From an uncultured Gemmatimonadales bacterium (GTDB lineage: Bacteria > Gemmatimonadota > Gemmatimonadetes > Longimicrobiales > RSA9): a stretch of 64,000 nucleotides of DNA. Each line of letters begins with the position of its first letter. Within the stretch, counting starts at the first letter, position 1. The position numbers were made by a program, and so were the translations under genes. A model generated the notes under the pieces. It searched no databases. It was not told where the DNA came from and saw only the letters and a list, made by a program, of their open reading frames with translations. Below, piece after piece: positions 45,127 through 63,214 of the stretch. The stretch spans positions 252,486 through 316,485 of the forward strand of contig CAVUKA010000006.1 of assembly GCA_963741945.1 (NCBI GenBank), in the 5' to 3' direction.

Positions 45127-45525
45127 CTACCCGGACCGTTCGAGTGACCACGCCGCGTGCTCCCGCACCAGCGCCTCCTCGTCCTCCAGCGCCTGCCGCA
45201 GCACCGCCACCGCCTCCTCCCGAGTCTCGTCCGCGGACGCCAGCCAGTTCCCCATCGCCACCGCGACGTTCCGCTTGAAGCCCGCGTACCCCGCCCGCCG
45301 GATCGCCGACCCCCGCGTCCACAGGTCCCACTCCTCCCGGGTCATCCGCATCAGCTCGACGAGCGATGGCGACTCCGTGGAGGGCCCGGTCTCCGCGTGC
45401 GGGTGCGGGTGCGTGCCTGACCCCGTGTCCGGCTGCGGCCCCGAAAGCCCGGGCGCGCGAGCCCGGTAGTCCGGCTCCGTCGTCGCCTGAACCAGCTTCG
45501 GTGAGTTCCATGGACACACCTCCTG
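45127..45525 (-). pseudogene. queG: queG 3' fragment, copy 1 (epoxyqueuosine reductase C-terminus)
   Basis: QEVCPWN...GSAIRRAGYAGFKRNVAVAMGNW...LVREHAAWSL; everything upstream, including GCDIC, is absent. Confidence 0.88.
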
Positions 45526-45579
45526 GGTGTTGTGCCGGTTCACCCGTTTCGAGGTACCACTCCGGACCGGCCGCAGAAC
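45500..45579. repeat. Putative att junction 1 (queG half plus 54-bp arm)
   Basis: Arm 45526-45579 is 40/54 identical and ungapped to 54640-54693; imperfect dyad around dinucleotide 45524-25. Confidence 0.7.
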
Positions 45580-45710
45580 CCCCCCCCCGCAACGCACGGG
45601 CGCCTTGCGGGGGCCGGTAACCTCCTCGCCCTCGCGGGGTAATCCTCGTACGGCCAGAACGGTCGCTCAAGACACCGCCGAAGGACGATGCGCTCCATGA
45701 CGATGCAGCA

Positions 45711-48700
45711 ATAGCACTTCCGCGCCTTCTGGCGTTCCTCCGGCCGGCCGCGACCTCCGGCCGGGACGAGCTCCTGGCCGGTCCGATCCAGGGCGCACTT
45801 CTCGGTACCGACCAGCTCGCCGAAAAGGCCCGGGCCGTGGCGCGGCGCGAGGGCATGCGTCCCCCGACGCGGTCGCGCACCCGGCGGCGCCGCGAGGCCG
45901 CCCTCCTCCTCCGCCTGTCCCAGACCCGCCGGATCCTGGACGACGCCCACGCGGCTCTTTCCGCGGGCGCGGCCCGGGACGTGGATGTTGGCCCGGCCGG
46001 CGAATGGCTGCTGGACAACTTCCACGTCGTGCAGGAGCACATCCGGGAGGTGCATGAGGCGCTCCCCCGCGGCTATTACCGGGAGCTGCCCGAGCTCGCG
46101 ACCGGACGACTCGCCGGGTACCCGCGCGTGTACGAGCTCGCCATCGCGCTGATCTCCCACTCCGAAGCGCGCATCGACCTCGAGAACCTGGAGCTCTTCG
46201 TCTCGGCCTACCAGTCGGTCACACCCCTCGCCATCGGCGAGCTGTGGGCGCTGCCCGCCATGTTCCGGATCGCGCTGATCGAGAGCGTGCGCCGCATGAC
46301 GCTGCGCACCATGCGGCGGATGCAGGAGATCGAGGATGCGGACGCGTGGGCGCTGCGCGTCGAGGCCGCCAGTGAGCAGGGGGCAGACGCGCTGGGCCAC
46401 GCACTGGACGCGTTCGTCCGGGCGCCACCGCGGCTGACCGCAGTGTTCATCGCGCGCTTCCTGCACCAGCTCCGGCTGACGCGCGGCGCGTATCTGCCGC
46501 TCGTGGAGATCGAGGCATGGATCAGCGAGCGGATGGTGACCGACGAAGTGGCGTCGGCGCGGGCGACGCAGCACCTGGCCCTCACGCAGGTGATGATGGC
46601 CAACAGCATCACGAGCCTGCGCACGATCGCACAGCTGGACTGGCGCACCTTCGTGGAGCGGCAGAGCGCGATGGAGTCGATCCTCCGCACCGACCCCGCG
46701 GCCTGTCATTCCCGCATGACGTTCGGCACGCGTGACCACTACCGCCACGTGGTCGAGCGCATCGCGCGCCGGACCGGTCGCCCGGAGGAGGGCGTGGCCC
46801 GGATGGCCGTCGACCTCGCGCGCGCCGCAGCGAACGACCATGGCCTGGAGGATGTCCGCGCCCACGTCGGCTACTACCTCGTGGACGACGGGCTCCGCGA
46901 GCTGGAGGCCGCCACCAGGTACCGGCCCCGTGTGTGGGAGGGCCTTCACCGATGGGTGCTGCGGCACCCGGACGCCACCTTCGTCTCGAGCCTCCTCACC
47001 GGCATGGTCGCCGCCCTCGTCGCCGAGCTGTGGCTGGTCGGCCCCGATGCCCGCGGAGTGTGGATCCCGATCCTCCTCCTGGCCCTCATCCCCGCGAGCC
47101 ACGTGGTCCTCGCCGTGGTCGACCAGCTCGTGACGACGCTGCTCCCGCCGCGCACGCTCCCCCGACTCGACCTGAGCGAGCGGGACGCGGTGCCCGCGAA
47201 GCTCCGCACCGCCGTGGTCGTGCCCACGCTGTTCGACAGCACCGCCGCCGTGGACGAGGCGTTCGACCACCTCGAGGTCCAGTTCCTCGCCAACCGGGGC
47301 GCGCACCTGCACTTCGCCGTACTGAGCGACTTCACCGATGCGGCGGCAGAGACCCTCGGCGAGGACGCTGCCATCGTCGCCGCGGCCGTGGCGCGCGTCC
47401 AGGACCTCAATGACCGCTACGCGCCGCTCGGCGGCGATGCGTTCTACCTCTTCCATCGGCCTCGCCGCTGGAACGCGCGCCAGGGCGTCTGGATGGGCTG
47501 GGAGCGCAAGCGCGGCAAGCTGGCCGAATTCAACCGCTTCCTGCGCGGCGGAGCGCGGGACGCCTTCACCACCATCGCGGGCAATGTGGAGCCGCTGGGC
47601 GACGTGCGGCACGTCATCACGCTCGACGCCGATACGGTGCTGCCGCCCGGGAGCGCTGCGGACCTCATTGGCACGCTCGCGCACCCGCTCAACCGCGCCG
47701 TGTACGACCCGGACCGGGGCCGGGTGGTCCGCGGCTATGGCATCCTCCAGCCGCGTGTCAGCGTCACGCTGCCCAGCGCGCACCGGTCCCGTTTTTCGGC
47801 CATCCACTCCGGCCACCCGGGCGTGGATCCCTACACGACCGCCACCTCCGATGTCTACCAGGACCTGTTCGGCGAGGGCAGCTTCACGGGAAAGGGCATT
47901 TACGAGGTCGACATCTTCGACCAGGCGACCCACGGCCGCTTCCCCGAGAACACGCTGCTGTCCCATGACCTGATCGAGGGCAGCTACGCTCGCGCGGGTC
48001 TGGTCACCAGCATCCTCGTCTACGACGACTATCCGGCCAGCTACCTCACGTTCACCCGGCGCAAGCACCGCTGGATCCGGGGGGACTGGCAGCTGCTCCG
48101 GTGGCTGACGCCCCGCGTGCCGGGACCGCACGGCCCGGAAGCCAACCGGCTCCCGATGCTCTCCCGCTGGAAGATCTTCGACAATCTGCGCCGCAGCATG
48201 GTGGAGATCGGGCTGATGCTCTTTCTCGTCGCCGGCTGGCTGCTGCTCCCGGGCTCGGCGCTGGTCTGGACTGCGCTGGCGCTCGGGACGGTCGCGGCGC
48301 CCTGGGTCGTCTCGCTCCTCCTCGCCGCGCTGCGCCCGCCGCTCGACCGGTCGTGGCGGGCATACTACGCCTCCGTCGGCCGCGACGCGCGGACGGCCGC
48401 GCAGCAGCTCGCCCTGGCCGTCGCCTTCCTACCCCACCAGGCGTGGGTGTCGGCCAATGCGATCATCCGCACCCTCTGGCGGCTGGGCGTCAGCAAGCGG
48501 AACCTGCTAGAGTGGGAGACCGCCTCGACGGCGGAACGCGGGGCGGGCACCGGCCGCGCACTCGTGTGGCGGGCCATGGCCCCGGCGGCGGCCGTCGCGG
48601 TGGCCATCGCACTGGTCGCCATGGCGCGATCGGCCGGCACCGACGGGGGCGCGCTCTGGTGGCCCGACCTGGTGGCCATCGGCGGCCTCGCCGCGCTCTG

Positions 48701-51700
48701 GGCCGTGTCGCCCGCCATCGCCCACGCCCTCGGACGACCGCGCGTGCGACGGCGCCGGCCGCTCACGGCGGCCCAGGGCGACAGGGCACGGGATCTGGCG
48801 CTCCGGCACTGGCGCTACTTCGACCGCTTCAGCGATGCGGAGACGCAGTGGCTGGTGCCGGACAACGTGCAGGAAGATCCCGGCGCCGCTGTCGCCATGC
48901 GCACGTCGCCGACGAACATCGGCCTGCAGCTGCTGGCGATCGGCAGTGCCCACGACCTCGGCTTCATCACGCTCGAAGACATGACGCGCCGGCTGGAGCG
49001 CGTGTTCCGGTCGCTGGAGCGAATGCGGCGCTTCCGTGGGCACTTCTTCAACTGGTACGACCTGCACGACCTGAGCGTCCTGGAGCCAGCCTACGTCTCC
49101 ACCGTGGACAGCGGCAACCTCGCCGGCCATCTGCTCGCGGTCCGGCAGGCCTGCCTGGAGGCGCGCCCCGAGCACGGGGACGACGGCGCGGTTCCTCCCG
49201 TGCTGCGCGCCCGGCTGGACGTGCTGGCCAGCCGCGCCGGCGATTACGTCACCGAGATGGACTTCGGCTTCCTCTTCGACGAGGAGCGCGAGCTCTTCTC
49301 CATCGGCTATCAGTTCGCCAGCCGCTCTCTCGACCTTTCCTACTACGACCTGCTCGCATCCGAGTCGCGACTCGCGAGCTTCGTCGCGGTCGCCAAGAAC
49401 GACGTGCCGCTCGACCACTGGTTCCGACTCGGGCGGTCGCTGACCCACGCGTCGGGAGCCACCGCGCTGGTCTCCTGGAGCGGCAGCATGTTCGAGTACC
49501 TGATGCCGGCGCTCGTCATGCGCTCCTATCCCGCCACCCTCCTCGATCAGACGTACCGCGGCGCCGTGCAACGCCAGATCGCCCACGGCGCCCGGCGCAG
49601 GGTGCCCTGGGGCGTGAGCGAGAGCGCGTACAACCTGCGCGACCACCAGCTCACCTATCAGTACCGCGCGTTCGGCGTGCCGGACCTGGGCCTCAAGCGC
49701 GGGCTCGGCCGTAACCTCGTCATCGCCCCGTACGCCACCGCCCTGGCGCTGCAGGTAGAGCCGGACCGCGCGCTGGACAACCTGGCCGTGCTCGCCGGCA
49801 TGGACGCGCTCGGGCCATACGGATTCCGCGACGCCATCGATTACACCCGACCGGATCCCGACCGGGACTACGCCGTGGTGGGCAACTACATGGCGCACCA
49901 CATCGGCATGAGCCTCGTCGCGCTGACCAACGTGCTCACCGGCGACGTGTGGCAGCGACGGTTCCACGCCGACCCCCTGGTGCGGTCGGCGGAGCTCCTG
50001 CTCCATGAGCGCATCCCGCGCCGCCTCGTGCTGCACCCCGCAAAGCCGGCGAGCGCCGAGGGTGCGCCGGCACGCCCGGACGTCGAGGGCCAGGCCGTCC
50101 GCGAGTTCACTGGTCTCCACACGCAGCGGCCCCACGTGGCGCTGCTCGGCCGTCAGCCCTACACCGTGATGGTGACCCACGCGGGCTCCGGGTTCTCGCG
50201 CTACGATGACGTCGCCGTGACGCGCTGGCGCGCCGACGGGACCACGGACGCCATGGGCCAGTTCTGCTACGTGAGGGACGTGACCAGCGACCGCGTCTGG
50301 TCGGCCGCCCACCAGCCGGTGTGCGCCCCGGCCGACGCGTACCGCGCGCTGCTCGCCAGTGACCGCGTGACGTTCGACCGGTCCGATGGAGACATCGAGA
50401 CACGGACCGAGATCAGCGTGGTGCCGGACGACGGCGCCGAAGTGCGCTGCGTCACGGTCACCAACCACGCGGACGACCCCCGGGAGATCGAGCTCACGAG
50501 CTACGGCGAGGTGGTGCTGGGGCCGGCGGACGCCGACCGGGCCCACCCGGCGTTCGCCAATCTGTTCGTCGAGACGGAATGGCACGAGTGGTGTTCGGCC
50601 CTCACCGCCACGCGGCGGCCGCGTTCGGCGGCGGAGCCGGCCCTCTGGTGCGTGCACGTGATGGACGCCGGCACCGCGCGGGTCGGCCCCGTCTCCTGCG
50701 AGACGGACCGCGCCCGCTTCATCGGCCGCGGCCGCACCACCCGGGCGCCGGCCGCTCTCGATGGTCCCGGCCCGCTCTCCGGAACCACCGGCGCCGTGCT
50801 CGACCCCATCTTCGCGCTGCGCACGCGGCTGCGCCTGGCCGCCGGGGAGTCGGCCACGGTGACGTTCACCACGCTGGTCGCCGCCACGCGGGAGGGCGCG
50901 TTCGAGCTGGCCGACCGGTACCACGATCCGCATACCGCCCAGCGCGCGCTCGACCTGGCGTGGACCTCCCACCAGGTCGAGCTGCGGGAGCGGGACCTGA
51001 CGCCGGCGGACGCGGCCATCTTCCAGGAGCTCGCCGGCTGCCTCCTCTATCCCCACCCGGCACTGCGGGCCACGCCGGAGGAGATGGACCGCAATCGGGG
51101 CGCGCAGCCGCTCCTCTGGTCCGCGGGGCTCTCCGGCGACAGGCGCATCATCCTCGCCACCCTCGACGGCACGGACGGGCTGCCGACGCTGCGGCAGGTC
51201 GGCGCCGCCCACCAGTTCTGGCGCCGCCGCGGCCTCGCCGCGGACCTGGTCGTCCTGTTCGCCCAGCCCGCGTCCTACCTGAAGGAGCTGCAGGACCGGA
51301 TCATGGAGACGCTCTTCACCATCGGCGGCACGGAGCTCGATCGGCCCGGTGGTGTCTTCCTCCGCAACGTCGAGTCGCTGGACGCGGAGACGCTGCTCAT
51401 GCTGCGCGCTACGGCCCGGCTCATCCTGCCGTGCGACGGGCGCTCGCTCACGCATCTCGGCGACGTGGTCATGGGGTCTACACCTGGCTCCACAGACCCC
51501 ATGACGCCCGCGACGGCGCCGCGGACCCCCGAGCGACAGCCGGCACGGGTGTCCGCCCTCGAGCGCTGGACGCACATCCGCATACCCGCCCGCAGGTCGG
51601 CCGACCTCCCGCCGCCGAAGCTCGCCGGCGCCACGGATACCGCTCCGCCGGCGTCAGACGCCGCAGGGTCGGGCCAGCCGGGTGATCACACCGCCGTCGA

Positions 51701-54149
51701 CACGGACGGCGCGAGGCTCATGTTCGACAACGGGCTGGGTGGGCTCGATGCCACCGGGGATTATGTGATCCGCGTCGCGGGCGACGCCGTGCCGCCCGCG
51801 CCGTGGGTCAACGTCGTCGCCCATCAGCGGGGCGGGTTCATCGTCAGCGAGCGCGGGGCCGGCTGCACCTGGGCGGACAGCAGCTACTTCTTCCGCCTCA
51901 CGCCGTGGCACAACGACCCCGTCAGCGACCCGATCTCCGACGTCCTGTACCTCCAGGACGAGGCGTCCGGCGACACGTGGAGCGCCACGCCCGCGCCGCT
52001 GGGGCACGACACTGCGTACACCATCCGGCACGGCGCTGGCGAGTCGGTCTTCGAGGCCGAGAGAAACGGCATCGCCACCCGCCTCACCCTCGGCATGGCC
52101 GCCGACGAGCCGGTGCGGCTGTCGGTGCTGCGGGTCACCAATCGCGACACCGTCGAGCGCCGCATCCAGCTCACCGCGTACGTCGAATGGACCCTCGGCG
52201 CCCAGCGCGAGCGCACGATGCACCACGTGCGCACCGCATTCGAGCCGGCCCTCGGCGCGGTCTTCGCCCGCAACCACTTCGACCCGCAGTTCCACGACCA
52301 CGTCGCGTTCTGCGCGCTGAGCGAGCCGGTCACCGGCCACACCGGCGACCGCCGCTCCTTCCTCGGACGGAACGGGAGCGTGAAGGCGCCCGCCGTGCTC
52401 CGGGGGCGTCAGATCTCCGGCGCGACAGGCACCGGCCTCGACCCGTGCGCCGCGCTCCAGTGCGCCCTTGTGCTCGCTCCCGGCGAGTCCCGCGAGGTGG
52501 TGGTGTCCCTCGGCGCCGCCGCCACCGAGGCGGAGGCACGCCGGCTCGTGACCCGGTTCCGCGGCCTGGACGAAGCCACGGCGGCCGCAGCCCGCACGGT
52601 CGAGCAGTGGCGCCAGCGCCTTTCGGTCATCACCGTCCGTACCCCCGATCCGGCGTTCGACGCGCTGCTCAACCGCTGGCTGCCATACCAGACGCTGGCC
52701 TGCCGCATGTGGGCGCGCTCGGCACTCTACCAGAGCAGCGGCGCCTACGGCTTCCGCGACCAGCTCCAGGACGCCCTCGCCCTCGTTCACGCCGAGCCGG
52801 CGCTGGCGCGGGAGCACATCCTGCGCGCCGCCGCGCGCCAGTTCCTCGAGGGCGATGTCCAGCACTGGTGGCACCCGCACACCGGCGCCGGCGTGCGCAC
52901 CCGCTTCTCCGATGACCTCGCCTGGCTGCCCTGGGTCGTCGACGAGTACGTCACCCGGACCGGCGACGGCTCCGTGCTGGACGAGTACGTGCCCTTCCTG
53001 ACCATGCGCCCCCTCGAGCCGGGCGAGGACGAGATCTACGACGTACCCGGCACCAGTGATGAGCACGGCAGCGTCTACGAGCACTGCCTGCGCGCGCTCC
53101 GTCGCGCGTCCACGGCGGGGCCCCACGGGCTGCCGCTCATCGGCACGGGCGACTGGAACGACGGAATGAACCGCGTCGGCGTGGAGGGCCGGGGTGAGAG
53201 TGTGTGGCTCGCCTGGTTCCTCATCGCCACCCTCCGCGCGTTCGCCGTGCGCGCCGCGGAGCGCGGGGATGGCGAGATGGCCGGTGAGATGCGCCGCCAG
53301 GCCGAAGCGTACGTGGCCGCCGTGCAGGCCCACGGCTGGGACGGCGGATGGTACCTGCGCGCATTTTTCGACGACGGCACACCCCTCGGCTCTAGCGACA
53401 GCGACGAATGCCGCATCGACTCCATCGCGCAGAGCTGGAGCGTGATCTCCGGGGCCGGCGCTCCCGGGCGCCAGGCCCGGGCCATGCGCGCCCTCGAGGA
53501 GCACCTTGTGGACGAGGACGCCCGGGTCATCCGACTTCTCACGCCCCCGTTCGACGAGTCCCCGAACGATCCCGGGTACATCAAGGGGTATCTGCCCGGC
53601 GTGCGGGAGAACGGCGCCCAGTACACCCACGCAGCCGCCTGGGCCGTCCTCGCCACCGCGCGTCTGGGCGGCGGCGGTCGCGCGTTCGAGCTGTTCCAGA
53701 TGCTCAATCCGCTGCTGCACACCCGGACCCCTGAAGAGGTCGCCACTTACAAGGTCGAGCCCTACGTCATCGCAGCGGATGTCTATACGGCGCCCGGTCA
53801 CCTCGGCAGGGGCGGCTGGACCTGGTACACCGGCGCGGCGGGCTGGATGTACCGGGTCGGACTCGAGGCCATCCTCGGCTTCGACAGGCGCGGCAACGTG
53901 CTCCGCATCACGCCCCGCGTGCCCGCCGCCTGGCCGGAAATGACCATCGAGTACCGCTTCGGCACCTCGCGCTACACGATCGTGGTGGACGAGCCCGGCA
54001 CATTCGCCGACGGCGCCCGGACGGAGGTGACCTTCGACGGGTGCGTCCTCGATGGCCCGGATATCCCGCTGGTGGACGACGGGAGGGCGCACCGGGTGCT
54101 CGTGCGGGCCACGGCGTCGGCAACGCGACTCTCCGCCGGCGGGCCGTAG
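45711..54149 (+). CDS. ndvB: Cyclic beta-1,2-glucan synthase (NdvB/ChvB/Cgs; GT84 plus glucoamylase-like plus GH94 domains)
   Basis: EWLLDNF, WMGWERKRGKL, ITLDADT, GILQPRV, LLSHDL.EG, RWIRGDWQ, TSPTNIG, SWSGSMFEY, QSSGAYGFRDQLQD, GDWNDG, RENGAQYTH. Conserved-looking coding extends upstream of GTG 45837 to a probable ATA start. Confidence 0.95.
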   Translation: MALPRLLAFLRPAATSGRDELLAGPIQGALLGTDQLAEKARAVARREGMRPPTRSRTRRRREAALLLRLSQTRRILDDAHAALSAGAARDVDVGPAGEWLLDNFHVVQEHIREVHEALPRGYYRELPELATGRLAGYPRVYELAIALISHSEARIDLENLELFVSAYQSVTPLAIGELWALPAMFRIALIESVRRMTLRTMRRMQEIEDADAWALRVEAASEQGADALGHALDAFVRAPPRLTAVFIARFLHQLRLTRGAYLPLVEIEAWISERMVTDEVASARATQHLALTQVMMANSITSLRTIAQLDWRTFVERQSAMESILRTDPAACHSRMTFGTRDHYRHVVERIARRTGRPEEGVARMAVDLARAAANDHGLEDVRAHVGYYLVDDGLRELEAATRYRPRVWEGLHRWVLRHPDATFVSSLLTGMVAALVAELWLVGPDARGVWIPILLLALIPASHVVLAVVDQLVTTLLPPRTLPRLDLSERDAVPAKLRTAVVVPTLFDSTAAVDEAFDHLEVQFLANRGAHLHFAVLSDFTDAAAETLGEDAAIVAAAVARVQDLNDRYAPLGGDAFYLFHRPRRWNARQGVWMGWERKRGKLAEFNRFLRGGARDAFTTIAGNVEPLGDVRHVITLDADTVLPPGSAADLIGTLAHPLNRAVYDPDRGRVVRGYGILQPRVSVTLPSAHRSRFSAIHSGHPGVDPYTTATSDVYQDLFGEGSFTGKGIYEVDIFDQATHGRFPENTLLSHDLIEGSYARAGLVTSILVYDDYPASYLTFTRRKHRWIRGDWQLLRWLTPRVPGPHGPEANRLPMLSRWKIFDNLRRSMVEIGLMLFLVAGWLLLPGSALVWTALALGTVAAPWVVSLLLAALRPPLDRSWRAYYASVGRDARTAAQQLALAVAFLPHQAWVSANAIIRTLWRLGVSKRNLLEWETASTAERGAGTGRALVWRAMAPAAAVAVAIALVAMARSAGTDGGALWWPDLVAIGGLAALWAVSPAIAHALGRPRVRRRRPLTAAQGDRARDLALRHWRYFDRFSDAETQWLVPDNVQEDPGAAVAMRTSPTNIGLQLLAIGSAHDLGFITLEDMTRRLERVFRSLERMRRFRGHFFNWYDLHDLSVLEPAYVSTVDSGNLAGHLLAVRQACLEARPEHGDDGAVPPVLRARLDVLASRAGDYVTEMDFGFLFDEERELFSIGYQFASRSLDLSYYDLLASESRLASFVAVAKNDVPLDHWFRLGRSLTHASGATALVSWSGSMFEYLMPALVMRSYPATLLDQTYRGAVQRQIAHGARRRVPWGVSESAYNLRDHQLTYQYRAFGVPDLGLKRGLGRNLVIAPYATALALQVEPDRALDNLAVLAGMDALGPYGFRDAIDYTRPDPDRDYAVVGNYMAHHIGMSLVALTNVLTGDVWQRRFHADPLVRSAELLLHERIPRRLVLHPAKPASAEGAPARPDVEGQAVREFTGLHTQRPHVALLGRQPYTVMVTHAGSGFSRYDDVAVTRWRADGTTDAMGQFCYVRDVTSDRVWSAAHQPVCAPADAYRALLASDRVTFDRSDGDIETRTEISVVPDDGAEVRCVTVTNHADDPREIELTSYGEVVLGPADADRAHPAFANLFVETEWHEWCSALTATRRPRSAAEPALWCVHVMDAGTARVGPVSCETDRARFIGRGRTTRAPAALDGPGPLSGTTGAVLDPIFALRTRLRLAAGESATVTFTTLVAATREGAFELADRYHDPHTAQRALDLAWTSHQVELRERDLTPADAAIFQELAGCLLYPHPALRATPEEMDRNRGAQPLLWSAGLSGDRRIILATLDGTDGLPTLRQVGAAHQFWRRRGLAADLVVLFAQPASYLKELQDRIMETLFTIGGTELDRPGGVFLRNVESLDAETLLMLRATARLILPCDGRSLTHLGDVVMGSTPGSTDPMTPATAPRTPERQPARVSALERWTHIRIPARRSADLPPPKLAGATDTAPPASDAAGSGQPGDHTAVDTDGARLMFDNGLGGLDATGDYVIRVAGDAVPPAPWVNVVAHQRGGFIVSERGAGCTWADSSYFFRLTPWHNDPVSDPISDVLYLQDEASGDTWSATPAPLGHDTAYTIRHGAGESVFEAERNGIATRLTLGMAADEPVRLSVLRVTNRDTVERRIQLTAYVEWTLGAQRERTMHHVRTAFEPALGAVFARNHFDPQFHDHVAFCALSEPVTGHTGDRRSFLGRNGSVKAPAVLRGRQISGATGTGLDPCAALQCALVLAPGESREVVVSLGAAATEAEARRLVTRFRGLDEATAAAARTVEQWRQRLSVITVRTPDPAFDALLNRWLPYQTLACRMWARSALYQSSGAYGFRDQLQDALALVHAEPALAREHILRAAARQFLEGDVQHWWHPHTGAGVRTRFSDDLAWLPWVVDEYVTRTGDGSVLDEYVPFLTMRPLEPGEDEIYDVPGTSDEHGSVYEHCLRALRRASTAGPHGLPLIGTGDWNDGMNRVGVEGRGESVWLAWFLIATLRAFAVRAAERGDGEMAGEMRRQAEAYVAAVQAHGWDGGWYLRAFFDDGTPLGSSDSDECRIDSIAQSWSVISGAGAPGRQARAMRALEEHLVDEDARVIRLLTPPFDESPNDPGYIKGYLPGVRENGAQYTHAAAWAVLATARLGGGGRAFELFQMLNPLLHTRTPEEVATYKVEPYVIAADVYTAPGHLGRGGWTWYTGAAGWMYRVGLEAILGFDRRGNVLRITPRVPAAWPEMTIEYRFGTSRYTIVVDEPGTFADGARTEVTFDGCVLDGPDIPLVDDGRAHRVLVRATASATRLSAGGP

Positions 54150-54204
54150 AACCCGCATCATCCTGAAGCTCGAGTACTTCGAGCCGGAGCAGGCCGGCAG
54201 GTTC

Positions 54205-54639
54205 TCACCGGACTGATCGCTCGAATGCCCACGCCGCGTGCTCCCGCACCAGCTCGCTCTCGTCCGCCACGGCCTCCCGCAGCACCGCCACCGCCTCCTG
54301 CGGCGCCTCGTCCACGGACGCCAACCAGTTCCCCATTGCCATGGCGACGTTGCGCCTGAAGCCGGAATACCCCGCCCGCCGCATCGCTGACCCCCGCGTC
54401 CACCGATCCCACTCCTCCCGCGACATCGACATCAGATCCACGAGCCGCGGCCCCGAGGTGCCCGGCAGCGAAGCGGCGCCCGGTGAGCCCGCCGCGCCCG
54501 GAACAGGGGTGGTCGAATCGCCGCGAAGCGGCGGCGTTAGGCCGGAGGCCGAAGGCGATCGAACCTCGCCCCGCGCCAGGTAATCCGCCTCCGCCGTGAC
54601 CTGAACCAGCTTCGTCGAGTTCCACGGGCAAACCTCCTG
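54205..54639 (-). pseudogene. queG: queG 3' fragment, copy 2
   Basis: QEVCPWN...GSAMRRAGYSGFRRNVAMAMGNW...LVREHAAWAF; same breakpoint as copy 1 but a different linker. Confidence 0.88.
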
Positions 54640-54693
54640 GGAAATGTGTCGACTCACCCGTTTCGAGATTTCGTTGCGGACGGGGCGCAGAAC
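54614..54693. repeat. Putative att junction 2
   Basis: Homologous to junction 1 and shares TCACCCGTTTCGAG; marks the left edge of the AT-richer island. Confidence 0.7.
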
Positions 54694-54805
54694 TGTAAGG
54701 AAGTAGGAGGGCGGAGGGCACGCGACTAGCGGCGTGTCGATAGCGGGGCAAAGGGACAAGAGGGCGACGCGACCCTCAAGCCCTATCAATGGGTAGTCGC
54801 GACAA

Positions 54806-55790
54806 CTACGTCCCCGGAGGACTGGGGGCAGCTCCGGGGCCGAGGTCGAGCGGCATCCTCTCCGAGCTCCCGTGTCCTACTGCTACAATGCCGTTATGGA
54901 TGAGATCCCCAAGCCACCGGGCGCGGTGAGCGCGAAGAGTCTTCGGGCTGTTCCGCCAGTAGACTGACGAAGCGACGAAGCGGAGTAGGTATGCTTGTCG
55001 CAGGTCCACCTTGTCCCAATAATGACGCGCGCGAACGTGATCAGGGCGAAGATATGGGTTCGCCCTAGCAGCAGCCGACTCCGCTCCGGATCGAAGACCT
55101 CATTGTGCAGAGGGATCGACAGATCGACCACTGCCTTTCGAGCATCCGTGCCGTGCGGTGGGCCGTCGCCGAACTGCACCGAGATCCGCTCGGGGAGGCA
55201 GTCGGTAAGATCGACGACAATGGCGCCCCCGTGGTAGCGGGGGCCGATCTCTGTCTGCTTCGCCGCCTCTGAGATAAGCCGCCGGGGGTCCACCTTCCCC
55301 GCTGGACGCTTGACTTCGACGGGATATCTTGAGAGGCCGTTCTCCACCACGAAATCTGGGCGCCGGCCCTTCGCAGTCGTGATGACACCAGTTGGCGTTC
55401 CTGAGTGAGCGAGCATCGCCCCAACCCAGAGCTGGCTCTGGTACTGAGCCGCGGTCGTTCCCCCGACCCCTAGAGTCCCCCCACCGAGTGCTGGAGATCT
55501 ACGGCCAGGGGCTGGAGTTCGTCGTCGGGTAGAACGGCCGCGATTTCGGCGAACTCCTGTGCATCGCGAGCGGCATGAGCTACCGCCGCCAGTTCAGATT
55601 CTGCCGTCGGGAAGCTGCCCGCGGCAGCCACACGACGGAGGAGCGCAGCGCTCCGGCCGAGACGCCCGGCGTCAATGACGCGAATACCCCATGCACGTAG
55701 GGACGCCACGGCCTCATCCATTCGGTCCGCAAGATCCGCCATACGTTCGGGAGTGAGAAGAGCCGCGTCTTCGGGTTGCGCAATTCTCAT
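54806..55790 (-). pseudogene. PD-(D/E)xK nuclease-like protein, frameshifted (three ORF pieces)
   Basis: ORFs 55470-55790, 54883-55416 and 54806-55009 join into one protein; RPDFVV...VEVKRP motif. Confidence 0.6.
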
Positions 55791-55803
55791 CGCGCCATGG
55801 GGA

Positions 55804-58800
55804 TCATGGCAGGTCCCGCTCTTCCGCCCATTGACGGGCCCTTCTGGCCTCCTCCCGGGCTGATTGCTCTTCGACAGCCGCCCATTCCCGGATCCGACGG
55901 GCCGGGTGGTTGAGGAATCTCCGAGCCACTGCAGCCTCCGCCTCATGCTCGGCCGCAATGTCGCCGCTGTAGACTTTGAAGCTATTCGTTCCCGCTGCGA
56001 ACTCGTGGAAGACGCGATCGTCTGTCTCAAACCGCGTCAGCAGCCATTCGGTGAAAGCCGGCACCACAGCGTGGTCATCCGAATCGATGTGCGGGGGTAC
56101 CAGAATGCCTGGCAATCTTTTGGGCCCCCTCGACGCCCACCCGTTCCAGCCACGCCATCTTGACTTGATCCGGTATCGATTCGAACAGGTTCCGATAGGT
56201 CCCAATGTGGAAGCGCCAGCCGACCAGTATCATCTAGCATGACACGCCCTAAGGCTTCCATCGTGATCTGGGGATCCTGGCGCGAGACTACGCTCAGTAC
56301 CTGCTGGACCTGGTCTTCGGCGCCGACCGGTCCATGTCCCAGTAGCCGCGCCGCGAACTCTGCCGCGCGTCCTGGGTCGTGGTTGGCCATCGCCGCCGCG
56401 ACGGTGCCCCACCAGTAGCTCTCCGGGGCCTCGTCGGCTGGCGTGCTCTCCGAGGATCTGCCAATGAATTCAATGAGGCGGGGCACCTCTACAAGTAGCG
56501 GCGGAGGAGCCTCCTCCAGGTCGCGTGGCAGCACTCTGGCGAGGGAATCGAGCGCGATTCGCTGGGCACGCTCATCCCCTTGGTCAGTGGCCGTGGCAAA
56601 CCGTTCGAAGAGTAGAGCCACATCTTCGTCATTCAGTTCGTCCAGACGCCCGAAGTTCGCGGGGTTCAGATAGCCGATGGGTACCCTGCCTTTGTCAAAG
56701 AGCCGAAGTACTCGTCCTAATGCTCCGACGGGTGCGCCCGCGCTTATGGCGATCGCTGCCGTGTTCTCCGGACGCTCATGCTCGTTCGCGTCCAGCCACT
56801 CGATCAGACGGTCAGCGTGTCGGGGATGCTCGCTCATTAACCCTCGCACATAGCCCCGAGCCAGAAGATCTGTGCCATCGTCGAGGGTGATCCACAGCAC
56901 CATTTCCAAAAGGGTAGCATTAGGTCGCGTTGGCCGAGCGCCTCTCCCAACTCCCCTGCAGCAACAGCTTCCTCGCTGGTTAGCCATGGAAGCTCCGACC
57001 GAAGAGCTTCATGGTCTGCGACGAGTTCGTCAGCTAAGGCAGCCAACTCCCGGTCCCAAGCATCGCTCTCGAGCCGCCCAGTTCCCCAGCGCTGCCGACC
57101 AACCGTGGATACGAGCCGGCCGTGCATGCCCTGTCCTATCAGGGCAGCTCGCCACTCTAGTAGCTGGTCCCGAAGCTCCAATGTGCCTTCGGCGTCATAC
57201 GTAAGGGCGGCATCGATGGACTCGAGCACGGCCACCTTGGCCGCGTCAGCCAATTCGACTTCGTCCAGGGATGCACGTGCCTGCGGCAGATAGCCTATGG
57301 CAGCTAGTCGGCGCAGGTTTCGAGCGAGTATCGCGATTGCCGCCTCGCGTGTTGCGGGCTCGAGGTGAAGCGCTTCCCTTATGAGCGCTAGCGCCGTTCT
57401 GAGTGCGTCCTGCTGCTCGCCATGTGTGCGGGGACGCCATTCCGCCGGTGGGATACGACCGGCTACGACCGGCGGCCCCAGGGTACGCGTGGCTCGCCAA
57501 TCAAGAGGAGACTCCAAGGCCGACGTTGCCACCCGCCGGACCTCGTCGACGTCGTCGTGCAGGCGCTCGCGGAGCAGAGACAATCGTTCTGCAAACGGGG
57601 TGGCGGTGCCGGAGAGGTGGATTCTGAAAAGCTGCTGCCAGATCCCGGTGGCGTTGTTTGATATATCAGGCTCGCTCTCAGCGGCGGCCAGACGAACGAG
57701 AATGCGTTCCGCATCAGCAAAGAACTCCGGAAACTGGGCAAACCGCTCGGCCAACCAAACCAGTCCTCGCCGGGGGCCCCAGCGTCCGCCGGCTTGAGCG
57801 GAACCCGTTATGCCGCGAAGCGCATCCAGATCAGCGCCATCGATGAGCTGTCGGACCACTGGGAGGTACCGATCTGGATCGGTATCGGTCAGCGCTACAA
57901 GCCTATCGACCGTCTCCACATCTCTGAGATCGGCAGTGGTGAGGGCGTCGGCCCAGCGCCGAAAGTAGTCGGCGCACACGCGCCGAACCTCCTTAGATCC
58001 GCTGCGCCATACCCGGCCGAGGAATGCGTCAACCAGTTCTGCGGGGAGAGAGGCCAAGAAGGCCTCGGCATCTGGCTCTATCCAGCGCCGCCAGGCTTCA
58101 TCGAATACGACCTGAGCGACGATCTCCGGGGTCACATAGAAGTACCGTCCTGCCTGCGCGGCGAACCCCGGACCCTCGTGCATCTGACGTAAGGCGTTGA
58201 CCATCTCCTTACGGGGGATCTCCGTCAGGGAGCAGAGCCGCTCCAGTTCGCCAGCCACCTCTCCGTTGTGACCGATCTTCGTTACGAGCGAGAGCGCCGC
58301 GAGGCACTCAAGCTGTTGGGGAGAGAGCCGTAGCCGCAGGTAATCTCCAACATGAGGCAGGGCAGGGCCTACATCCCCTGTGTCAGCGATCAGTGCATCG
58401 TGCCGACAAAGGTCAGCCGCAAGACGCGGAAAGCCTTCCGATAGGCGTGCGTACGCCCTGCGGCGGCGGTCTGGAATATCCGGGAAGTTCGCTTCCAGCA
58501 CCGCATCGACAGACTCGTCGGCATCTTGCCCATCGACAGCTCCGGATCGGGGGTAGCCGGTCTGGCCAAGGAGTTGTCGATCGCAATGACCCTGATGCGG
58601 TTAGAATGCCCGGACAGTAGCTCGTGCAGCTTGTGGCGTCCGGCCGGACCACACTCATCAGCCACCACGACGGCCCGGGTGCGCTCGTCGTTCGCGAGCA
58701 GCCGTGCAACATGCAGCACGGTTCCCTCGTCGTTGCAGTAGACGGTTGTACCGACCGCGCCCGGGGCGGCAGACACTACCTCGAAGACAGTTCGAGTCTT

Positions 58801-59480
58801 GCCGATTCCGGCCTCACCCTGGACCGTGCGAACAGCTGCCGCCGGTGTCATGCCGAAGTCAACGTGGGCGGCGAGCGATTCCTGTACTCCTGCCCAATCC
58901 GGTACGGGTACGTAGACCCTGGTGTTCGCGCGCGCGTTGGCCTCCCAGGCTCCCAAGTGGAGAACATCACGCGCGAGCGCCGGCTGAAAGAAGGAGAGGA
59001 CAAACCCGGGGTACCGATTCGCAAGTGCGGCGAGTTCGTCCGCAGTCACGACGCGAGCTGGCGGAGCTCCCGGGGTTATCTTTCGGGCTGCCGCGGTCAG
59101 GTCCATTTCCCACTGCGTTCAGTGGGGCCGGGCATGCTGTCGGCCAAGGCGAGCCGGAAAGCGTCGCCACTCTCAATGCGCTCCCTCACGAAAGAGCCAT
59201 CGAGCATGTCGTTGGTGGACACGTTCCGGTATTCGGTTCCCTTGTACTGCCATACGCTGGGGGACTCGAACCACCCCGAATCGTCACCATTTAGAGCGAC
59301 GCGCACGGTGGTATCGACACCGCCGTCCGGTATGTTTGTGCGGATGTTTGTTTCCACGTCGGCGTCCACGGCTCCGCAGACTGCAGCGTGGGTTCGGAGG
59401 AGGCCGTCCGCGAAGGAGGTGAACGGCACCCCTCCGCTGCCACGAAGGGCGAATATCCGGTCGGGGGTTATCGAGATCAT
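55804..59480 (-). pseudogene. Large nuclease-like + P-loop NTPase + helical-repeat protein (STAND-like), split by indels
   Basis: GGAGG RBS; N-terminal PDGGVD...WQYK; Walker A GEAGIGKT; Walker B VVVADE; long alpha-helical C-terminus; shifts near 59120, 58520, 56925, 56225, 56110. Confidence 0.72.
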
Positions 59481-59668
59481 CTGATCCTCCCGGGGCAAAC
59501 CGGTCCCCGCTTGGCCTGCTCGTTTTCTCGGTCTGCCGGCCTAGAAGCGGTCAGGCAGGTCTCTTGGCAATCTAGCCACTTCACACTCCTCTTCACAACC
59601 GCTCGCCAGAGGCTTATGTTGGTGCATGGCGATTCAGCTTTGCCGACCACCACGACGCGCGGGTACAC

Positions 59669-60468
59669 GTGAGCAACAGCAACTCACCCCTTGAGGGACC
59701 CCCTCCTGCAGAGGTGCCCTTGGCAAACGCCCCGCTTGTACGGGTAATTGCACAAATCCGGTTCCCCCTTGTCGCCTCGATCGAAAAGCGTGACTTCATC
59801 GGGTCCTTTCAGGAGGCCATCCGGAGGACGTATCCGGTCTTGCGACCCGAGCAGACGAGATCGGTGGTCTTCGGCCCAGAAGGGATGGTTGAGGCGAGAA
59901 CTGGCAACATTTGGCGCTTCAGCTCGAAGGATGGGAGTTGGCGCGTTGCGCTTGCCCCGGACTTCCTTGCGCTGGAGACTGGGAGATACACGAGCCGGGC
60001 TGACTTCGTCGATCGCTTCCGTACCGTACTACGGGCCTTGGCTGATCACGTCGAACCGCAAGTTACGGATCGGCTCGGCGTCCGCTATATCGATCAGGTG
60101 TCTGGAGACCACTTCTCTGATCTTCCCACACTCGTCAGGCGCGAAGTCGCCGGCATCTGGAGTACCCCCCTCGCCGGTCACGCCAGCCAGAGCATTGCCG
60201 AGAGCCTTTTCACGCTTCCGGATGGGTCGGGGAACTTGAAGGCACGGTGGGGGTGGTCCCGCGGAGGCCACAGTGGATCCAGCTGCCATTGACCCGCTTG
60301 ATACCCCTAGCTGGATCCTGGACCTCGACGCGTTTGCGGCTCGTTCTCAGACCTTCGATGTTGATGAGGTGGTCAGGCAGACAACAGCGTTTTGCTGAGA
60401 GGATTTACAGCTTCTTCCGGTGGACAGTCACGACGGAATTCCTTCGGCGCTACGGAGGTGACGTATGA
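59669..60468 (+). CDS. TIGR04255-family protein (frameshifted about 60250-60390)
   Basis: LANAPLVRVIAQIRFP, WRFSS..G.W.V.L..DFLALET..Y, RLGVRYID, then WILDLD and IYSFFRW in other frames. Confidence 0.8.
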
Positions 60469-61166
60469 CGGCCCAACCGCAAGTCACAAATCAGGGGACC
60501 ACGTTCACGGATTCCTCTCCGTTGGAGGGAATTCGGCAGAAGACGCCGCGCTGGCTGATCATCAGTGGATCTCTCGCGATCGCCGGCACATCTTCGGCAG
60601 GTCCGCATCGGGCTTGGAGCGACCTCTACGTACCTCAGTTGGACGCCACGGCCGCCTCGGACAGACTGCTTGTCCGCCAGTGTGCGCCGGCGCAAGCTGA
60701 GACACCGGAGGCAGCGATCGCCACGCTTCGCCGCCTCTCAGGGCTGACATGGGATCAACTCGGCGAGCTATTCGAAGTCTCCCGTCGGAGCGTGCATTTT
60801 TGGGCTAGCGGAAAACCATTGAATGCTGCCAATGAAGCTCGTCTAATGCGCGCTCTGGCAGTCATTCAGTATGCAGACCGCGGGGATCCAGAACTCACTC
60901 GACGAGCGCTCTTCGAGCCTGTAGGAGGGTTGGTGCCCTTCGACTTGTTGGCGAGGCAGGGCTTCGAGGAGGCGCGGGACCTTCTTGGCGAGGGGGCACG
61001 ATCCTCAGCCGTCGCAATGACCGACCTGAGCCCGGTAGCCAAGCGGGCGAGACAACCCCTGCGCCCAGAAGAGTTGGCGGATGCGCGCCACGACCAGGCG
61101 CACCGAGATCTGGAGGGCAGCCGACCAGCGCGTACGATCCGGAATGCCCGACGAACGCGCGGTTGA
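60465..61166 (+). CDS. XRE-type HTH protein with extended N- and C-termini
   Basis: LRRLSGLTWDQLGELFEVSRRSVHFWASG; ATGA overlap with the upstream gene. Confidence 0.82.
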   Translation: MTAQPQVTNQGTTFTDSSPLEGIRQKTPRWLIISGSLAIAGTSSAGPHRAWSDLYVPQLDATAASDRLLVRQCAPAQAETPEAAIATLRRLSGLTWDQLGELFEVSRRSVHFWASGKPLNAANEARLMRALAVIQYADRGDPELTRRALFEPVGGLVPFDLLARQGFEEARDLLGEGARSSAVAMTDLSPVAKRARQPLRPEELADARHDQAHRDLEGSRPARTIRNARRTRG

Positions 61167-61932: not shown

Positions 61933-62326
61933 CCGCCCGGGACTATGTCGAGAGCGATCCACTCGACCTGGACCATCTCTCCGAACCGGCCGAAGAGTGC
62001 TCTGCCGAGTCCTTCAACTCCTCATCCTGTCGTCACGCCGCATTTTCGTTCCCGAACCGAAGCGGGATATGCGGATCAGCTTCCCACTTCGGGTCTTCCG
62101 TCGTTGAAGACCCACCTTCAATTCTTGAAGCCGCACCCAGCCACCTGAGCGCACAATCCAGTGGCAAGCGGAGTAGCCGCACTAGCAGCGACCAACGGCT
62201 CTCAGAGCTTCGCGGTGCTCCCGCCACATGCTCACCGCCCCCGTTCAAGGCAACGATTAGCTGGGTATTCAGTCCATGAGCTGCAGGACCTGCTCGGTCC
62301 GGTCCTCCCGGGCCTCAAGAGCGATC

Positions 62327-63133: not shown

Positions 63134-63214
63134 CTCGCGCTCCAGGTACGGCCGTCGCCTCGTTCTTCTGAGATACGCTCAAGGCGCATTTCGCGTTTGA
63201 CTCCCGCGCAGGCC

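What the first reader, a model, noticed from the sequence alone, without database searches (positions are those of the whole stretch)
45127..54693. Tandem queG 3' halves with att-like junctions: a queG-targeted composite island
Seen: two diverged queG C-terminal fragments, 9114 bp apart in direct orientation. Both begin exactly at the Gln codon of the (GCDIC)QEVCPWN 4Fe-4S motif and stay open to a natural stop. Their linkers differ, so they are different alleles rather than a recent duplication, and each is fused to a homologous non-queG arm. Known: site-specific elements leave target-gene fragments at att sites, and staphylococcal SCC elements build tandem att-delimited cassettes at rlmH. Inference: a recombinase system that cuts inside queG and accretes cassettes. 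Recombination with either junction would rebuild QueG with an alternative C-terminus, tying tRNA queuosine maturation to island excision.
Basis: partly seen in the sequence, partly recalled or inferred. Interest (0 to 1): 0.88.

Follow-up and report, generated by a model that had tools for sequence, protein, structure and literature searches.

The report
Serine-integrase island scars in queG
Two leftover tail pieces of the tRNA-modification gene queG mark where mobile gene islands were spliced, one after another, into the same spot of that gene, apparently by a serine integrase; this is a new target gene and a new bacterial group for an otherwise familiar kind of element.

Summary
The window holds two diverged queG 3' fragments on the minus strand, A at 45127-45525 and B at 54205-54639. 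Each begins at the Gln codon of QEVCPWN and is preceded by a homologous 54-nt non-coding arm.

The missing queG 5' half lies at the first bases of contig C4, which stops 1 nt before that codon. The window itself ends at the end of contig C6.

The arm-plus-junction sequence occurs in 33 of 401 genomes of the same order (Gemmatimonadota). There it bounds cargo cassettes downstream of queG.

No recombinase lies in the window or in this assembly. In relatives, however, a large serine recombinase gene or its remnant sits convergently behind a queG 3' end in 14 of 14 loci examined. One of these is a complete ~39-kb island in a single-contig genome.

The junction follows serine-integrase att-site rules. 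It has dyad symmetry about the CA of the Gln codon, and a distal motif lies 5 bp further out in the arm than in native queG.

Reading: the window holds two attR scars from successive integrations, separated by a 2770-aa glucan-synthase cargo, plus part of a newer low-GC island.

Twelve of those 14 relatives' loci keep queG uninterrupted, so the proposed coupling of queuosine synthesis to excision is unsupported.

This is a new member of a known kind.

The parts
45127..45525 (-). Displaced queG 3' fragment A. It runs from the Gln codon of QEVCPWN to the stop (132 codons) and is read as the B' side of the older attR.
   Evidence: TIGR00276 positions 251-336.
45526..45579 (-). Arm A. This is the 54-nt non-coding element end, read as a P half-site, abutting the CA of the Gln codon.
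   Evidence: (D2).
45837..54149 (+). Cargo between the two scars. A single 2770-aa ORF carries GT2, glucoamylase-like and GH94 domains and resembles a cyclic beta-1,2-glucan synthase.
54205..54639 (-). Displaced queG 3' fragment B (144 codons), read as the B' side of the younger attR.
   Evidence: TIGR00276 positions 262-336.
54640..54693 (-). Arm B, the 54-nt non-coding element end (P half-site) of the newest island.
   Evidence: (D2).
54694..64000 (.). Partial body of the newest island. GC is 0.61-0.68 against about 0.71 to the left, and it runs off the end of contig C6. It holds a weak nSTAND-type NTPase match and a ParB-like N-terminal domain protein (62327-63133, minus strand). Most ORFs match no family.
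   Evidence: The window end is the contig end.

Best explanation
The two fragments are attR scars left by two successive site-specific integrations of genomic islands into queG. The elements belong to a Gemmatimonadota family driven by a large serine recombinase (LSR).

A complete element, read in the sense of queG, has four parts in order. First comes its own replacement queG 3' end, from the Gln codon to the stop. Second is a convergent LSR gene just behind it. Third is the cargo. Fourth is the ~54-nt arm.

Recombination happens at or next to the CA of the Gln codon, between the element's site (arm + CA + replacement 3' end) and the chromosomal site inside queG. This joins the host 5' part to the element's 3' end, so queG stays whole. 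The host's old 3' end is pushed behind the element, where it sits next to the arm.

A second integration into the rebuilt gene pushes the first element and its scar further out. In this window the order is: queG 5' half (contig C4), an unassembled gap, the newest island (64000 down to 54694), arm B with fragment B, the glucan-synthase cargo, then arm A with fragment A.

Older elements lose their recombinase and remain as cargo bounded by scars.

Shown here: the anatomy, the conservation of the arm, the break in similarity exactly at the CA, and the strict linkage of the LSR to queG in relatives. Inferred: that the LSR catalyses the event, the exact crossover dinucleotide, and that the attL and LSR of the newest island lie in the gap.
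For: 1. Own genome. The queG 5' half (TIGR00276 positions 1-235, 255 bits) lies at C4:6-749 on the minus strand. The contig begins ..GSRIYGCDI plus 2 nt, which is 1 nt before the Gln codon. The window's right end is the end of C6.

2. Arm distribution. The arm-plus-junction pattern occurs in 33 of 401 genomes of the order, in all three families. The reversed-pattern control gave 0 in every genome. In one-per-species genomes it gave 31 stretches, 30 of them labelled Gemmatimonadota. It gave 19 metagenome contigs.

3. Arrays in relatives. The order intact queG, cargo, arm|CA|fragment is seen in G001, G007, G022, G072, G123 and G173 (G327: no fragment after the arm). Multi-arm arrays are seen in G157 and G168.

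4. Break at the CA. Within arrays, similarity between the resident queG and the displaced copy jumps at the CA. In G173 it goes from 19 and 21 matches per 50 nt upstream to 46-49 of 50 downstream.

5. Host-like fragments. In 4 of the 5 arrays where both copies were scored, the displaced fragment's best match is the resident gene. Similar arms sit next to quite different fragments.

6. Solo arms. These leave queG similarity 7-13 nt after the CAG.

7. The arm is non-coding. Two arms carry an in-frame TAG.

8. Dyad symmetry about the CA. Arms average 6.14 of 9 complementary positions (best 9 of 9) and native queG averages 4.96 of 9. With the centre slid, the values are 0.5-4.1.

9. Distal motif shift. 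The motif ACGG[GC] starts at -22 in 32 of 37 arms and at -17 in 15 of 29 native sites. A 5-bp shift toward the centre in attB relative to attP is the published rule for serine integrases (PMC3783163, passages read).

10. A complete element in G087. Intact queG is followed by a convergent 754-aa ORF with a Resolvase domain (37.3 bits) and a Recombinase domain (32.8 bits). About 39 kb of lower-GC DNA follows, then the arm and a displaced fragment.

11. LSR distribution and linkage. LSR homologues occur in 16 of 401 genomes. In 14 of 14 loci fetched, the LSR or a remnant lies convergent to a queG 3' end. Twelve of these have uninterrupted queG and 2 have only a displaced fragment.

12. Mirror motif. 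Five of the 12 LSR-linked attL sites printed carry CCCGT at +20 to +24 and three more a one-letter variant there. This is the mirror image of ACGGG at -22 to -18 in the arm.
Against: No serine recombinase is found in the window or anywhere in this assembly. The link to an LSR therefore rests on relatives.

Most arm-bearing genomes show no LSR homologue. Of the 16 LSR-positive genomes, only 5 are among the 33 arm-positive genomes.

Among ORFs on the element side of arms, no recombinase family recurred: none in 114 ORFs, none in 23 ORFs, and none in the direct scans. displays only 25 of 103 families, so single occurrences could be hidden.

Fragment B, which the model takes as the first element's replacement end, has the ordinary CPWN-type right half. 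It lacks the CCCGTAAATTCTC-type right half seen next to LSR genes, and no LSR remnant follows it.

G001 and G141 share a cargo at 91-98% identity, while the preceding queG 3' parts are only about 77% alike except for their last ~100 nt. Homologous exchange within the fragments therefore also occurs.

The right-half motif offset between native and element sites is about 8 nt, not 5.

Similarity of the arm to queG -57..-1 is convincing only for some arms. The mean alignment score is 4.41 against 3.35 for shuffles.
Confidence: 0.78

Rival explanations
1. There is no dedicated recombinase. Circular DNA carrying a queG 3' segment inserts by RecA-dependent single crossover (Campbell type) within the ~450-nt homology. 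The arm merely marks where the homology of an ancestral circle ended.
For: There is a mosaic identity profile between G001 and G141. The cargo is 91-98% identical, the last ~100 nt of queG plus 80 nt downstream are about 95% identical, and the rest is about 77%. Fragments within one genome are 90-97% alike in G173, G157 and G168, which suggests gene conversion. Most cassettes carry no recombinase.
Against: Similarity breaks exactly at the CA, not at scattered points. The proximal 24-32 nt of the arm is about 90% conserved between families, while the neighbouring fragments are only 35-60% identical at protein level. Solo arms end 7-13 nt after the CAG. There is dyad symmetry and a 5-bp motif shift at the site. 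The LSR is linked to queG in 14 of 14 loci.
Confidence: 0.1
2. A programmed switch. queG is kept split, and recombination with junction A or B restores it with alternative C-termini, coupling queuosine synthesis to excision. This would resemble the skin or SPbeta elements in Bacillus.
For: In this assembly no queG 3' end is attached to the 5' half, because C4 stops at the junction. Both fragments keep open frames. Contigs of three other relatives also end within -57 to +25 of the site (one of them, G017, is an unpublished genome).
Against: Twelve of 14 LSR-linked loci in relatives have an uninterrupted queG, and 29 of 31 genomes reach the queG model cut-off. Displaced fragments in relatives are frameshifted or truncated. 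dN/dS between A and B is about 0.5. The contig break is equally explained by strain differences or by failure to assemble a mobile island.
Confidence: 0.06
3. The elements use a tyrosine recombinase: a classical integrase, an integron-type system, or host XerCD as in IMEX elements.
For: The genome has six PF00589 genes, three of them within 11 kb of contig ends. In G072 and G173 a Xer-like gene lies 7-15 kb upstream of queG.
Against: No PF00589 hit lies inside any array in 15 arm-bearing genomes. The genome's dif-like site is on contig C8 and is unlike the queG site. The arms gave no consensus hairpin. The recombinase that does sit next to queG in relatives is a serine recombinase.
Confidence: 0.04

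Closest known systems
Staphylococcal cassette chromosome (SCC/SCCmec) composite islands at rlmH (recalled, not looked up here)
   Same: Large serine recombinases act at a site in the 3' part of a conserved RNA-modification gene. Elements accumulate in tandem, and each boundary is marked by a repeat of the target. Many cassettes lack their own recombinase.
   Different: The target is queG, and the site lies about 130-150 codons before the stop rather than in the last few codons. The element must therefore carry a ~400-450-nt replacement gene end. The host phylum is Gemmatimonadota. Relatedness of this LSR to Ccr proteins was not tested. Mobilisation of recombinase-less cassettes in trans is not shown.
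Phage serine integrases such as A118/LI integrase, phiC31 and Bxb1 (PMC3783163, passages read)
   Same: The recombinase has Resolvase and Recombinase domains. The att sites are short, with imperfect dyad symmetry about a central dinucleotide. The distal motif lies 5 bp further out in attP than in attB. The best solved-structure match of the LSR profile is the A118 integrase C-terminal domain (E 0.0046).
   Different: The arm is absent from 2.9 million viral contigs and from the phage and plasmid collections searched. The cargo is defence and accessory metabolism rather than a phage genome. The sequence relationship is weak: a single-sequence search of solved structures found nothing.
Phage 21 and e14 in icd of Escherichia coli (recalled)
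   Same: The element integrates inside a protein-coding gene and brings a substitute 3' end. The gene stays functional and the old end is left as a fragment at the far junction.
   Different: Those elements use tyrosine integrases. They are single prophages rather than arrays, and the duplicated segment is shorter.
Tycheposons of Prochlorococcus (bioRxiv 10.1101/2020.12.28.424599, passages read)
   Same: Successive integrations at one site push earlier elements further into an island. Degenerate elements and partial target repeats remain, and the cargo is adaptive.
   Different: Tycheposons use tyrosine recombinases and target tRNA genes.

Membership tests
Large serine recombinase (LSR) integrative element | Recombinase with an N-terminal resolvase-type catalytic domain | tested here: met
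   This was tested in a relative, not in the window. The G087 ORF next to queG scores 37.3 bits on PF00239 against a cut-off of 23.3. An R-K-S motif is visible near the N-terminus in the 3 aligned full-length sequences that reach it (read by eye).
Large serine recombinase (LSR) integrative element | Recombinase domain (PF07508) following the catalytic domain | tested here: met
   The score is 32.8 bits against a cut-off of 21.1, at residues 239-321.
Large serine recombinase (LSR) integrative element | Zinc-ribbon domain with an embedded coiled coil | tested here: inconclusive
   Invariant Cys columns (C342, C345, C386) are seen in 8 homologues. The profile's best solved-structure hits are the A118 integrase C-terminal domain at E 0.0046-0.0052, followed by coiled-coil proteins. 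No Pfam zinc-ribbon hit was obtained and no structure was predicted.
Large serine recombinase (LSR) integrative element | Short att sites with imperfect dyad symmetry about a central dinucleotide | tested here: met
   Complementarity about the CA averages 6.14 of 9 in 37 arms (best 9 of 9) and 4.96 of 9 in 26 native sites. With the centre slid it is 0.5-4.1.
Large serine recombinase (LSR) integrative element | Distal (zinc-ribbon) motif 5 bp closer to the centre in attB than in attP (PMC3783163) | tested here: met
   On the left half, ACGG[GC] starts at -22 in 32 of 37 arms and at -17 in 15 of 29 native sites. On the right half, the mirror motif is at +20 in LSR-linked sites and at +12 where it is present in native sites. 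That offset is 8 nt, not 5.
Large serine recombinase (LSR) integrative element | Recombinase gene inside the element at this locus | tested here: not met
   The assembly has no PF00239 or PF07508 hit and no homologue of the G087 LSR. The expected place is the unassembled gap between C6 and C4.
Large serine recombinase (LSR) integrative element | Strand exchange at the central dinucleotide by the LSR | not testable with these tools
   This needs an in vitro or in vivo recombination assay.
SCC-type composite island | Tandem cassettes, each bounded by a repeat of the target gene's 3' part, with some cassettes lacking a recombinase | tested here: met
   The window holds two scars. G157 has two arms and G168 three. 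Cargo ORFs show no recurrent recombinase.
SCC-type composite island | Target rlmH and Ccr-type recombinases | tested here: not met
   The target is queG. Relatedness to Ccr proteins was not tested.
Integron | Adjacent tyrosine integrase (IntI) and folded attC sites at cassette ends | tested here: not met
   No PF00589 hit lies in or next to arrays in 15 genomes. RNAalifold gave no consensus structure for the 37 arms.
IMEX (Xer-exploiting elements) | The attachment site mimics the chromosomal dif site | tested here: not met
   A dif-like site lies on contig C8 near 129105 and has no likeness to the queG junction.
QueG (TIGR00276) as a gene | Full-length match over the curated cut-off | tested here: not met
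   Fragments A and B cover only model positions 251-336 and 262-336, at 48 and 44 bits against a cut-off of 200. The 5' half on C4 covers positions 1-235.

The most novel reading that the evidence does not exclude
The scars may not be passive. The LSR of a resident island, with a directionality factor, could recombine the queG-proximal attL with any of the stacked attR sites. That would excise one, two or three cassettes as a unit and mobilise recombinase-less cargo in trans, acting as an integron-like accretion and shuffling platform built on a serine integrase. In strains like this one, queG would be left split until excision. The LSR reading frame also stays open for about 180 codons antisense to the replacement queG end in several genomes. 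This could link expression of the two genes.
Probability: 0.12. Interest if true: 0.7.

Novelty: new member of a known kind. Interest (0 to 1): 0.45.

Why it matters
It defines a previously undescribed hot spot for gene gain in Gemmatimonadota, a common but little-studied soil and sediment phylum. Glycan synthesis genes, transporters, signalling proteins and many defence-type genes (STAND/CHAT/SIR2 NTPases, Fic, PIN, AbiEii, BREX parts) collect there.

It also yields a natural family of serine integrases whose attB lies in a conserved gene, with readable attP, attB, attL and attR sets. That is the kind of information used to choose integrases for genome engineering.

Four literature searches found no paper that names queG as an attachment site. 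These searches cover only the held open-access library.

Tried and rejected
Transfer RNA and RNA families. ARAGORN found no tRNA in the window or in ten related loci. Rfam at E<=1 over 44800-55200 gave only two chance-level hits away from the arms.

Structured arm. RNAalifold on 37 arms gave no consensus structure.

Xer/IMEX. Rejected after a dif-like site was found on C8. GC skew over C6+C4 shows no switch at the junction.

IS91-type rolling-circle transposase. A truncated Y2_Tnp ORF follows queG in G007. Y2_Tnp hits occur in 12 of 32 arm-bearing genomes, but only G007 and a weak G169 hit are near arrays. There is none in G000. I judge these incidental.

Tyrosine integrases. None lies inside arrays.

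G013's 31-kb interval between queG and a distal fragment holds housekeeping-type genes and no recombinase.

Synteny. The gene left of fragment A (42295-44877) has no homologue in the queG loci of relatives. G001 shares synteny only on the 5' side of queG. An ancestral downstream neighbour could not be defined.

ParB-like island protein. Its only closer homologue, in G129, is not near queG.

Arm as a diverged copy of queG -57..-1. Some arms are suggestive, with shared CTGCGCCCGG, ACGGGTG and CGACA. Overall support is weak, at 4.41 against 3.35 for shuffles.

Public reads. The best run holds only 0.19 of the sampled words. When laid, near-identical short contigs of run X1 cover all 16 bins from 44001 to 54672, but depth is 0-0.49 in the 14 bins from 54673 to 64000. 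No contig bridges the junction, so this absence of cover is not used as evidence.

Other collections. Plasmid and phage collections gave no match to arm plus fragment B, and viral contigs gave none.

Single-sequence search of solved structures with the LSR found nothing.

Structure and complex prediction were not used.
Full report
WHAT IS IN THE WINDOW

The DNA is about 71% GC and falls to 0.61-0.68 to the right of about 55 kb. On the minus strand there are two ORFs, 45127-45597 and 54205-54789, whose products both read ..QEVCPWN.. and continue to a natural stop.

The repeat finder gives two direct-repeat blocks. One is 231 nt at 84% identity. The other is 122 nt at 79% identity, at 45458-45579 and 54572-54693, with a spacing of 9114.

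The pairwise alignment shows that the linkers differ by indels. It also shows that the likeness continues for 54 nt upstream of the CAG into sequence that does not encode the expected GCDIC.

The curated queG model matches only its last 75-86 positions in each copy, at 44-48 bits against a cut-off of 200. Over 132 aligned codons the copies differ at dS 0.54 and dN 0.26.

The open frames, however, say little in DNA this rich in G+C.

Between the two copies lies one 2770-aa ORF (45837-54149, plus strand) with GT2, glucoamylase-like and GH94 domains. The window holds no tRNA.

THE OTHER HALF OF queG

The window is C6:252486-316485 of an eight-contig assembly, and C6 is 316485 bases long. The window therefore ends at a contig end.

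The assembly holds only these two queG 3' copies. The 5' part (model positions 1-235, 255 bits) lies at C4:6-749 on the minus strand. Contig C4 begins ..GSRIYGCDI plus two bases, which is one base short of the Gln codon where both fragments begin.

Contig ends share no overlap. The join itself is not assembled.

THE SAME ARCHITECTURE IN RELATIVES

Thirty relatives were searched with the queG model. Extra 3' fragments lie downstream of queG in G001 (same genus), G007, G013, G022 and G026. In three further genomes a contig ends inside queG near the same point. One of these, G017, is unpublished, and only that remark rests on it.

The arm next to the displaced fragments is conserved across genera and families. 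A degenerate 32-nt pattern of arm plus CAGGAGGT, with up to 3 mismatches, occurs in 33 of 401 genomes of the order. By family this is f1 11/72, f2 9/257 and f3 12/71. The reversed control pattern scored 0 in all genomes.

An exact version of the pattern finds 31 stretches among one-per-species genomes. Thirty are labelled Gemmatimonadota (Longimicrobium, Longimicrobiales, Gemmatimonadales, Gemmatimonadaceae) and one is labelled Acidobacteriota. It finds 19 metagenome contigs, no viral contig, and no plasmid or phage record.

The arrays have the form intact queG, cargo, arm|CA|fragment. Up to three arms occur on one contig.

The cargo is diverse. It includes:
- MacB/FtsX permeases;
- arabinofuranosidase and Sde182;
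- LarA and KdgT;
- histidine kinases, KaiC and GGDEF-EAL proteins;
- CheB and PLD;
- STAND, CHAT and SIR2 NTPases;
- Fic, PIN and AbiEii;
- BrxC/D and HerA.

WHY THE JUNCTION IS A SITE-SPECIFIC ONE

1. Within an array, likeness between the resident gene and the displaced copy jumps at the CA. In G173 it goes from 19 and 21 matches per 50 nt upstream to 46-49 of 50 downstream.

2. The displaced fragment resembles the resident gene best in 4 of the 5 arrays where both were scored; G001 is the exception. Similar arms sit beside very different fragments. Arm and fragment therefore have separate histories that meet at the CA.

3. Several solo arms keep CAGGAGG(TGTG) and then diverge 7-13 nt after the CAG. 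One of these is in this genome, at C5:106350-106381.

4. The arm is non-coding, because two arms have an in-frame TAG. Even so, its proximal 24-32 nt is about 90% conserved between families whose fragments are only 35-60% identical as protein.

5. The site has dyad symmetry about the CA. Arms average 6.14 of 9 complementary positions, with 9 of 9 in G092. Native queG averages 4.96 of 9. With the centre slid, the values are 0.5-4.1.

THE RECOMBINASE

The window has none. The assembly has six tyrosine recombinase genes, none near the window's junctions. It has no serine recombinase.

No recombinase family recurs among ORFs on the element side of arms. I scanned 114 such ORFs (which shows only 25 of 103 families) and 23 more. 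In 15 arm-bearing genomes no tyrosine recombinase lies inside an array.

A scan of 32 arm-bearing genomes for the resolvase domain then gave a 754-aa open frame in G087, 37 kb on the element side of its arm. G087 is a single-contig genome, and its layout is clear:
- intact queG;
- directly behind it, and convergent, an ORF with a Resolvase domain (37.3 bits) and a Recombinase domain (32.8 bits);
- about 39 kb at GC 0.61-0.70, flanked by 0.72-0.75 on the queG side, holding an AAA_25 protein, an IS transposase, an N6 methylase, a protein kinase and HerA;
- the arm and a displaced fragment.

Homologues of this protein (residues 1-570, E<=1e-20) occur in 16 of 401 genomes of the order: f1 5/72, f2 4/257 and f3 7/71. 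There is none in G000.

In all 14 loci returned, the gene or a remnant of it lies convergent to a queG 3' end. Twelve of these have an uninterrupted queG. Two have only a displaced fragment, one of them with an arm. The loci of the remaining two genomes were not examined. Short remnants also follow fragments in G045.

A profile of eight homologues finds the A118 serine integrase C-terminal domain as its best solved relative, though only weakly (E 0.0046). The next hits are coiled-coil proteins. A single-sequence search found nothing.

THE SITE OBEYS SERINE-INTEGRASE GRAMMAR

Rutherford and colleagues (PMC3783163, passages read) report that the zinc-ribbon-domain motif of attB lies 5 bp closer to the central dinucleotide than in attP. 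The recombinase-domain contacts stay in place.

Here the proximal 8 nt are nearly the same in many arms and in native queG. The distal motif ACGG[GC] starts at -22 in 32 of 37 arms and at -17 in 15 of 29 native sites. The other 14 native sites have no exact match, and by eye they carry synonymous variants.

In 5 of the 12 LSR-linked attL sites printed, the right half carries CCCGT at +20 to +24, and three more carry a one-letter variant there. This is the exact mirror of the arm's ACGGG at -22 to -18 about the CA. A reconstructed attP would therefore be symmetric at the positions where a serine integrase's zinc-ribbon domains bind. On the right side, the native motif, where present, lies at +12, an offset of 8 nt rather than 5.

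READING OF THE WINDOW

Fragment A with arm A, and fragment B with arm B, are two attR sites (element P half-site, CA, displaced host B' side). The glucan-synthase gene is what remains of the first element. The low-GC stretch from 54694 to the contig end is the distal part of a newer island.

The newer island's attL, replacement queG end and recombinase should lie in the gap before C4. That would also explain why the assembly has no serine recombinase.

WEAK POINTS

- Fragment B has an ordinary CPWN-type right half and no recombinase remnant behind it.
- Only 5 of 16 LSR-positive genomes matched my arm pattern.
- Most arm-bearing genomes show no LSR.
- G001 and G141 share a cargo at 91-98% identity behind queG ends that are only about 77% alike, except for their last ~100 nt. 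Homologous exchange and gene conversion between the repeats clearly also shape these arrays.

WHAT IS NOT SUPPORTED

There is no evidence that excision supplies alternative QueG C-termini or regulates queuosine synthesis. In relatives the gene is kept whole by the element's replacement end, and displaced ends decay. Whether queG is whole in this strain cannot be told from the assembly.

COMPARISON AND NOVELTY

The nearest known systems are:
- SCC composite islands at rlmH and the phage serine integrases;
- phage 21 and e14 in icd, for the substitute gene end (both recalled, not looked up here);
- tycheposons, for stepwise accretion with remnants (bioRxiv 10.1101/2020.12.28.424599, passages read).

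Searches of the held library for queG or epoxyqueuosine reductase together with attB, integration site, integrase or prophage, and for Gemmatimonadota with integrase and genomic island, gave nothing relevant.

I file it as a new member of a known kind. It has a new target gene, a new host phylum and an unusually long replacement segment that begins inside an iron-sulfur cluster motif.

The tallies include a few unpublished genomes (G016, G017, G020, G043, G101, G147). No specific claim other than the G017 contig end depends on them.

Noticed in passing
G000 contig C5:106350-106381 (minus strand), outside the window: A third copy of the arm, nearly identical to the arm of the same-genus genome G001. 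It is followed by CAGGAGGTGT and then unrelated sequence. It lies about 330 nt downstream of a PD40 beta-propeller gene, with no recombinase nearby.
   Followed up: partly
window 45837-54149 (+): A 2770-aa ORF with GT2, glucoamylase-like and GH94 supersandwich and catalytic domains, resembling a cyclic beta-1,2-glucan synthase. Its GC is host-like even though it lies between two integration scars.
   Followed up: partly
L164:12127-14388 (G087) and the LSR loci: The serine recombinase reading frame stays open for about 180 codons antisense to the replacement queG 3' end, with open frames of 694-983 aa in four genomes. This may be chance in GC-rich DNA or a real gene overlap.
   Followed up: no
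window 54883-64000: The low-GC island holds a ParB-like N-terminal domain protein (62327-63133, minus strand), a weak nSTAND NTPase match (58390-59106, minus strand), and a 177-aa ORF (54883-55416, minus strand) with a PD..EVK-like motif seen by eye. Most ORFs match no Pfam or PHROG family.
   Followed up: partly
L035:about 5330-5400 (G013): A stretch that looks like a tRNA 3' end (T-arm plus acceptor end, by eye) directly abuts a queG piece that starts about 20 nt upstream of the usual junction. ARAGORN calls no tRNA there.
   Followed up: partly
L036:about 16810 (G013): The resident queG of G013 has a one-base insertion just before the Gln codon. This splits the gene into two frames exactly at the integration site.
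   Followed up: no
L034:15951-16424 (G007): A truncated IS91-type Y2 transposase ORF (PF04986, profile positions 96-172) starts at the stop of the intact queG. The neighbouring KdgT permease gene is also truncated.
   Followed up: partly
G000 contig C8 near 129105 (minus strand): A canonical dif-like site (two 11-nt arms around a 6-nt centre), about 25 kb from a tyrosine recombinase gene at C8:104447.
   Followed up: no
G000 contig ends: Most contigs end in low-GC stretches, for example C3 right end (0.55-0.61 over 12 kb), C2 left end and C5 left end. The first 25 nt of C6 recur at C6:3236, and the last 25 nt of C8 recur at C1:963866. The assembly therefore breaks mainly at islands or repeats.
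   Followed up: no
L033:4410-4924 (G001) and L081:9933-10444 (G141), in the queG-sense coordinates (reverse complement of both loci): A MacB/FtsX permease cassette is 91-98% identical between two genera. In both it lies behind a queG 3' end, which points to recent transfer of a cassette.
   Followed up: partly
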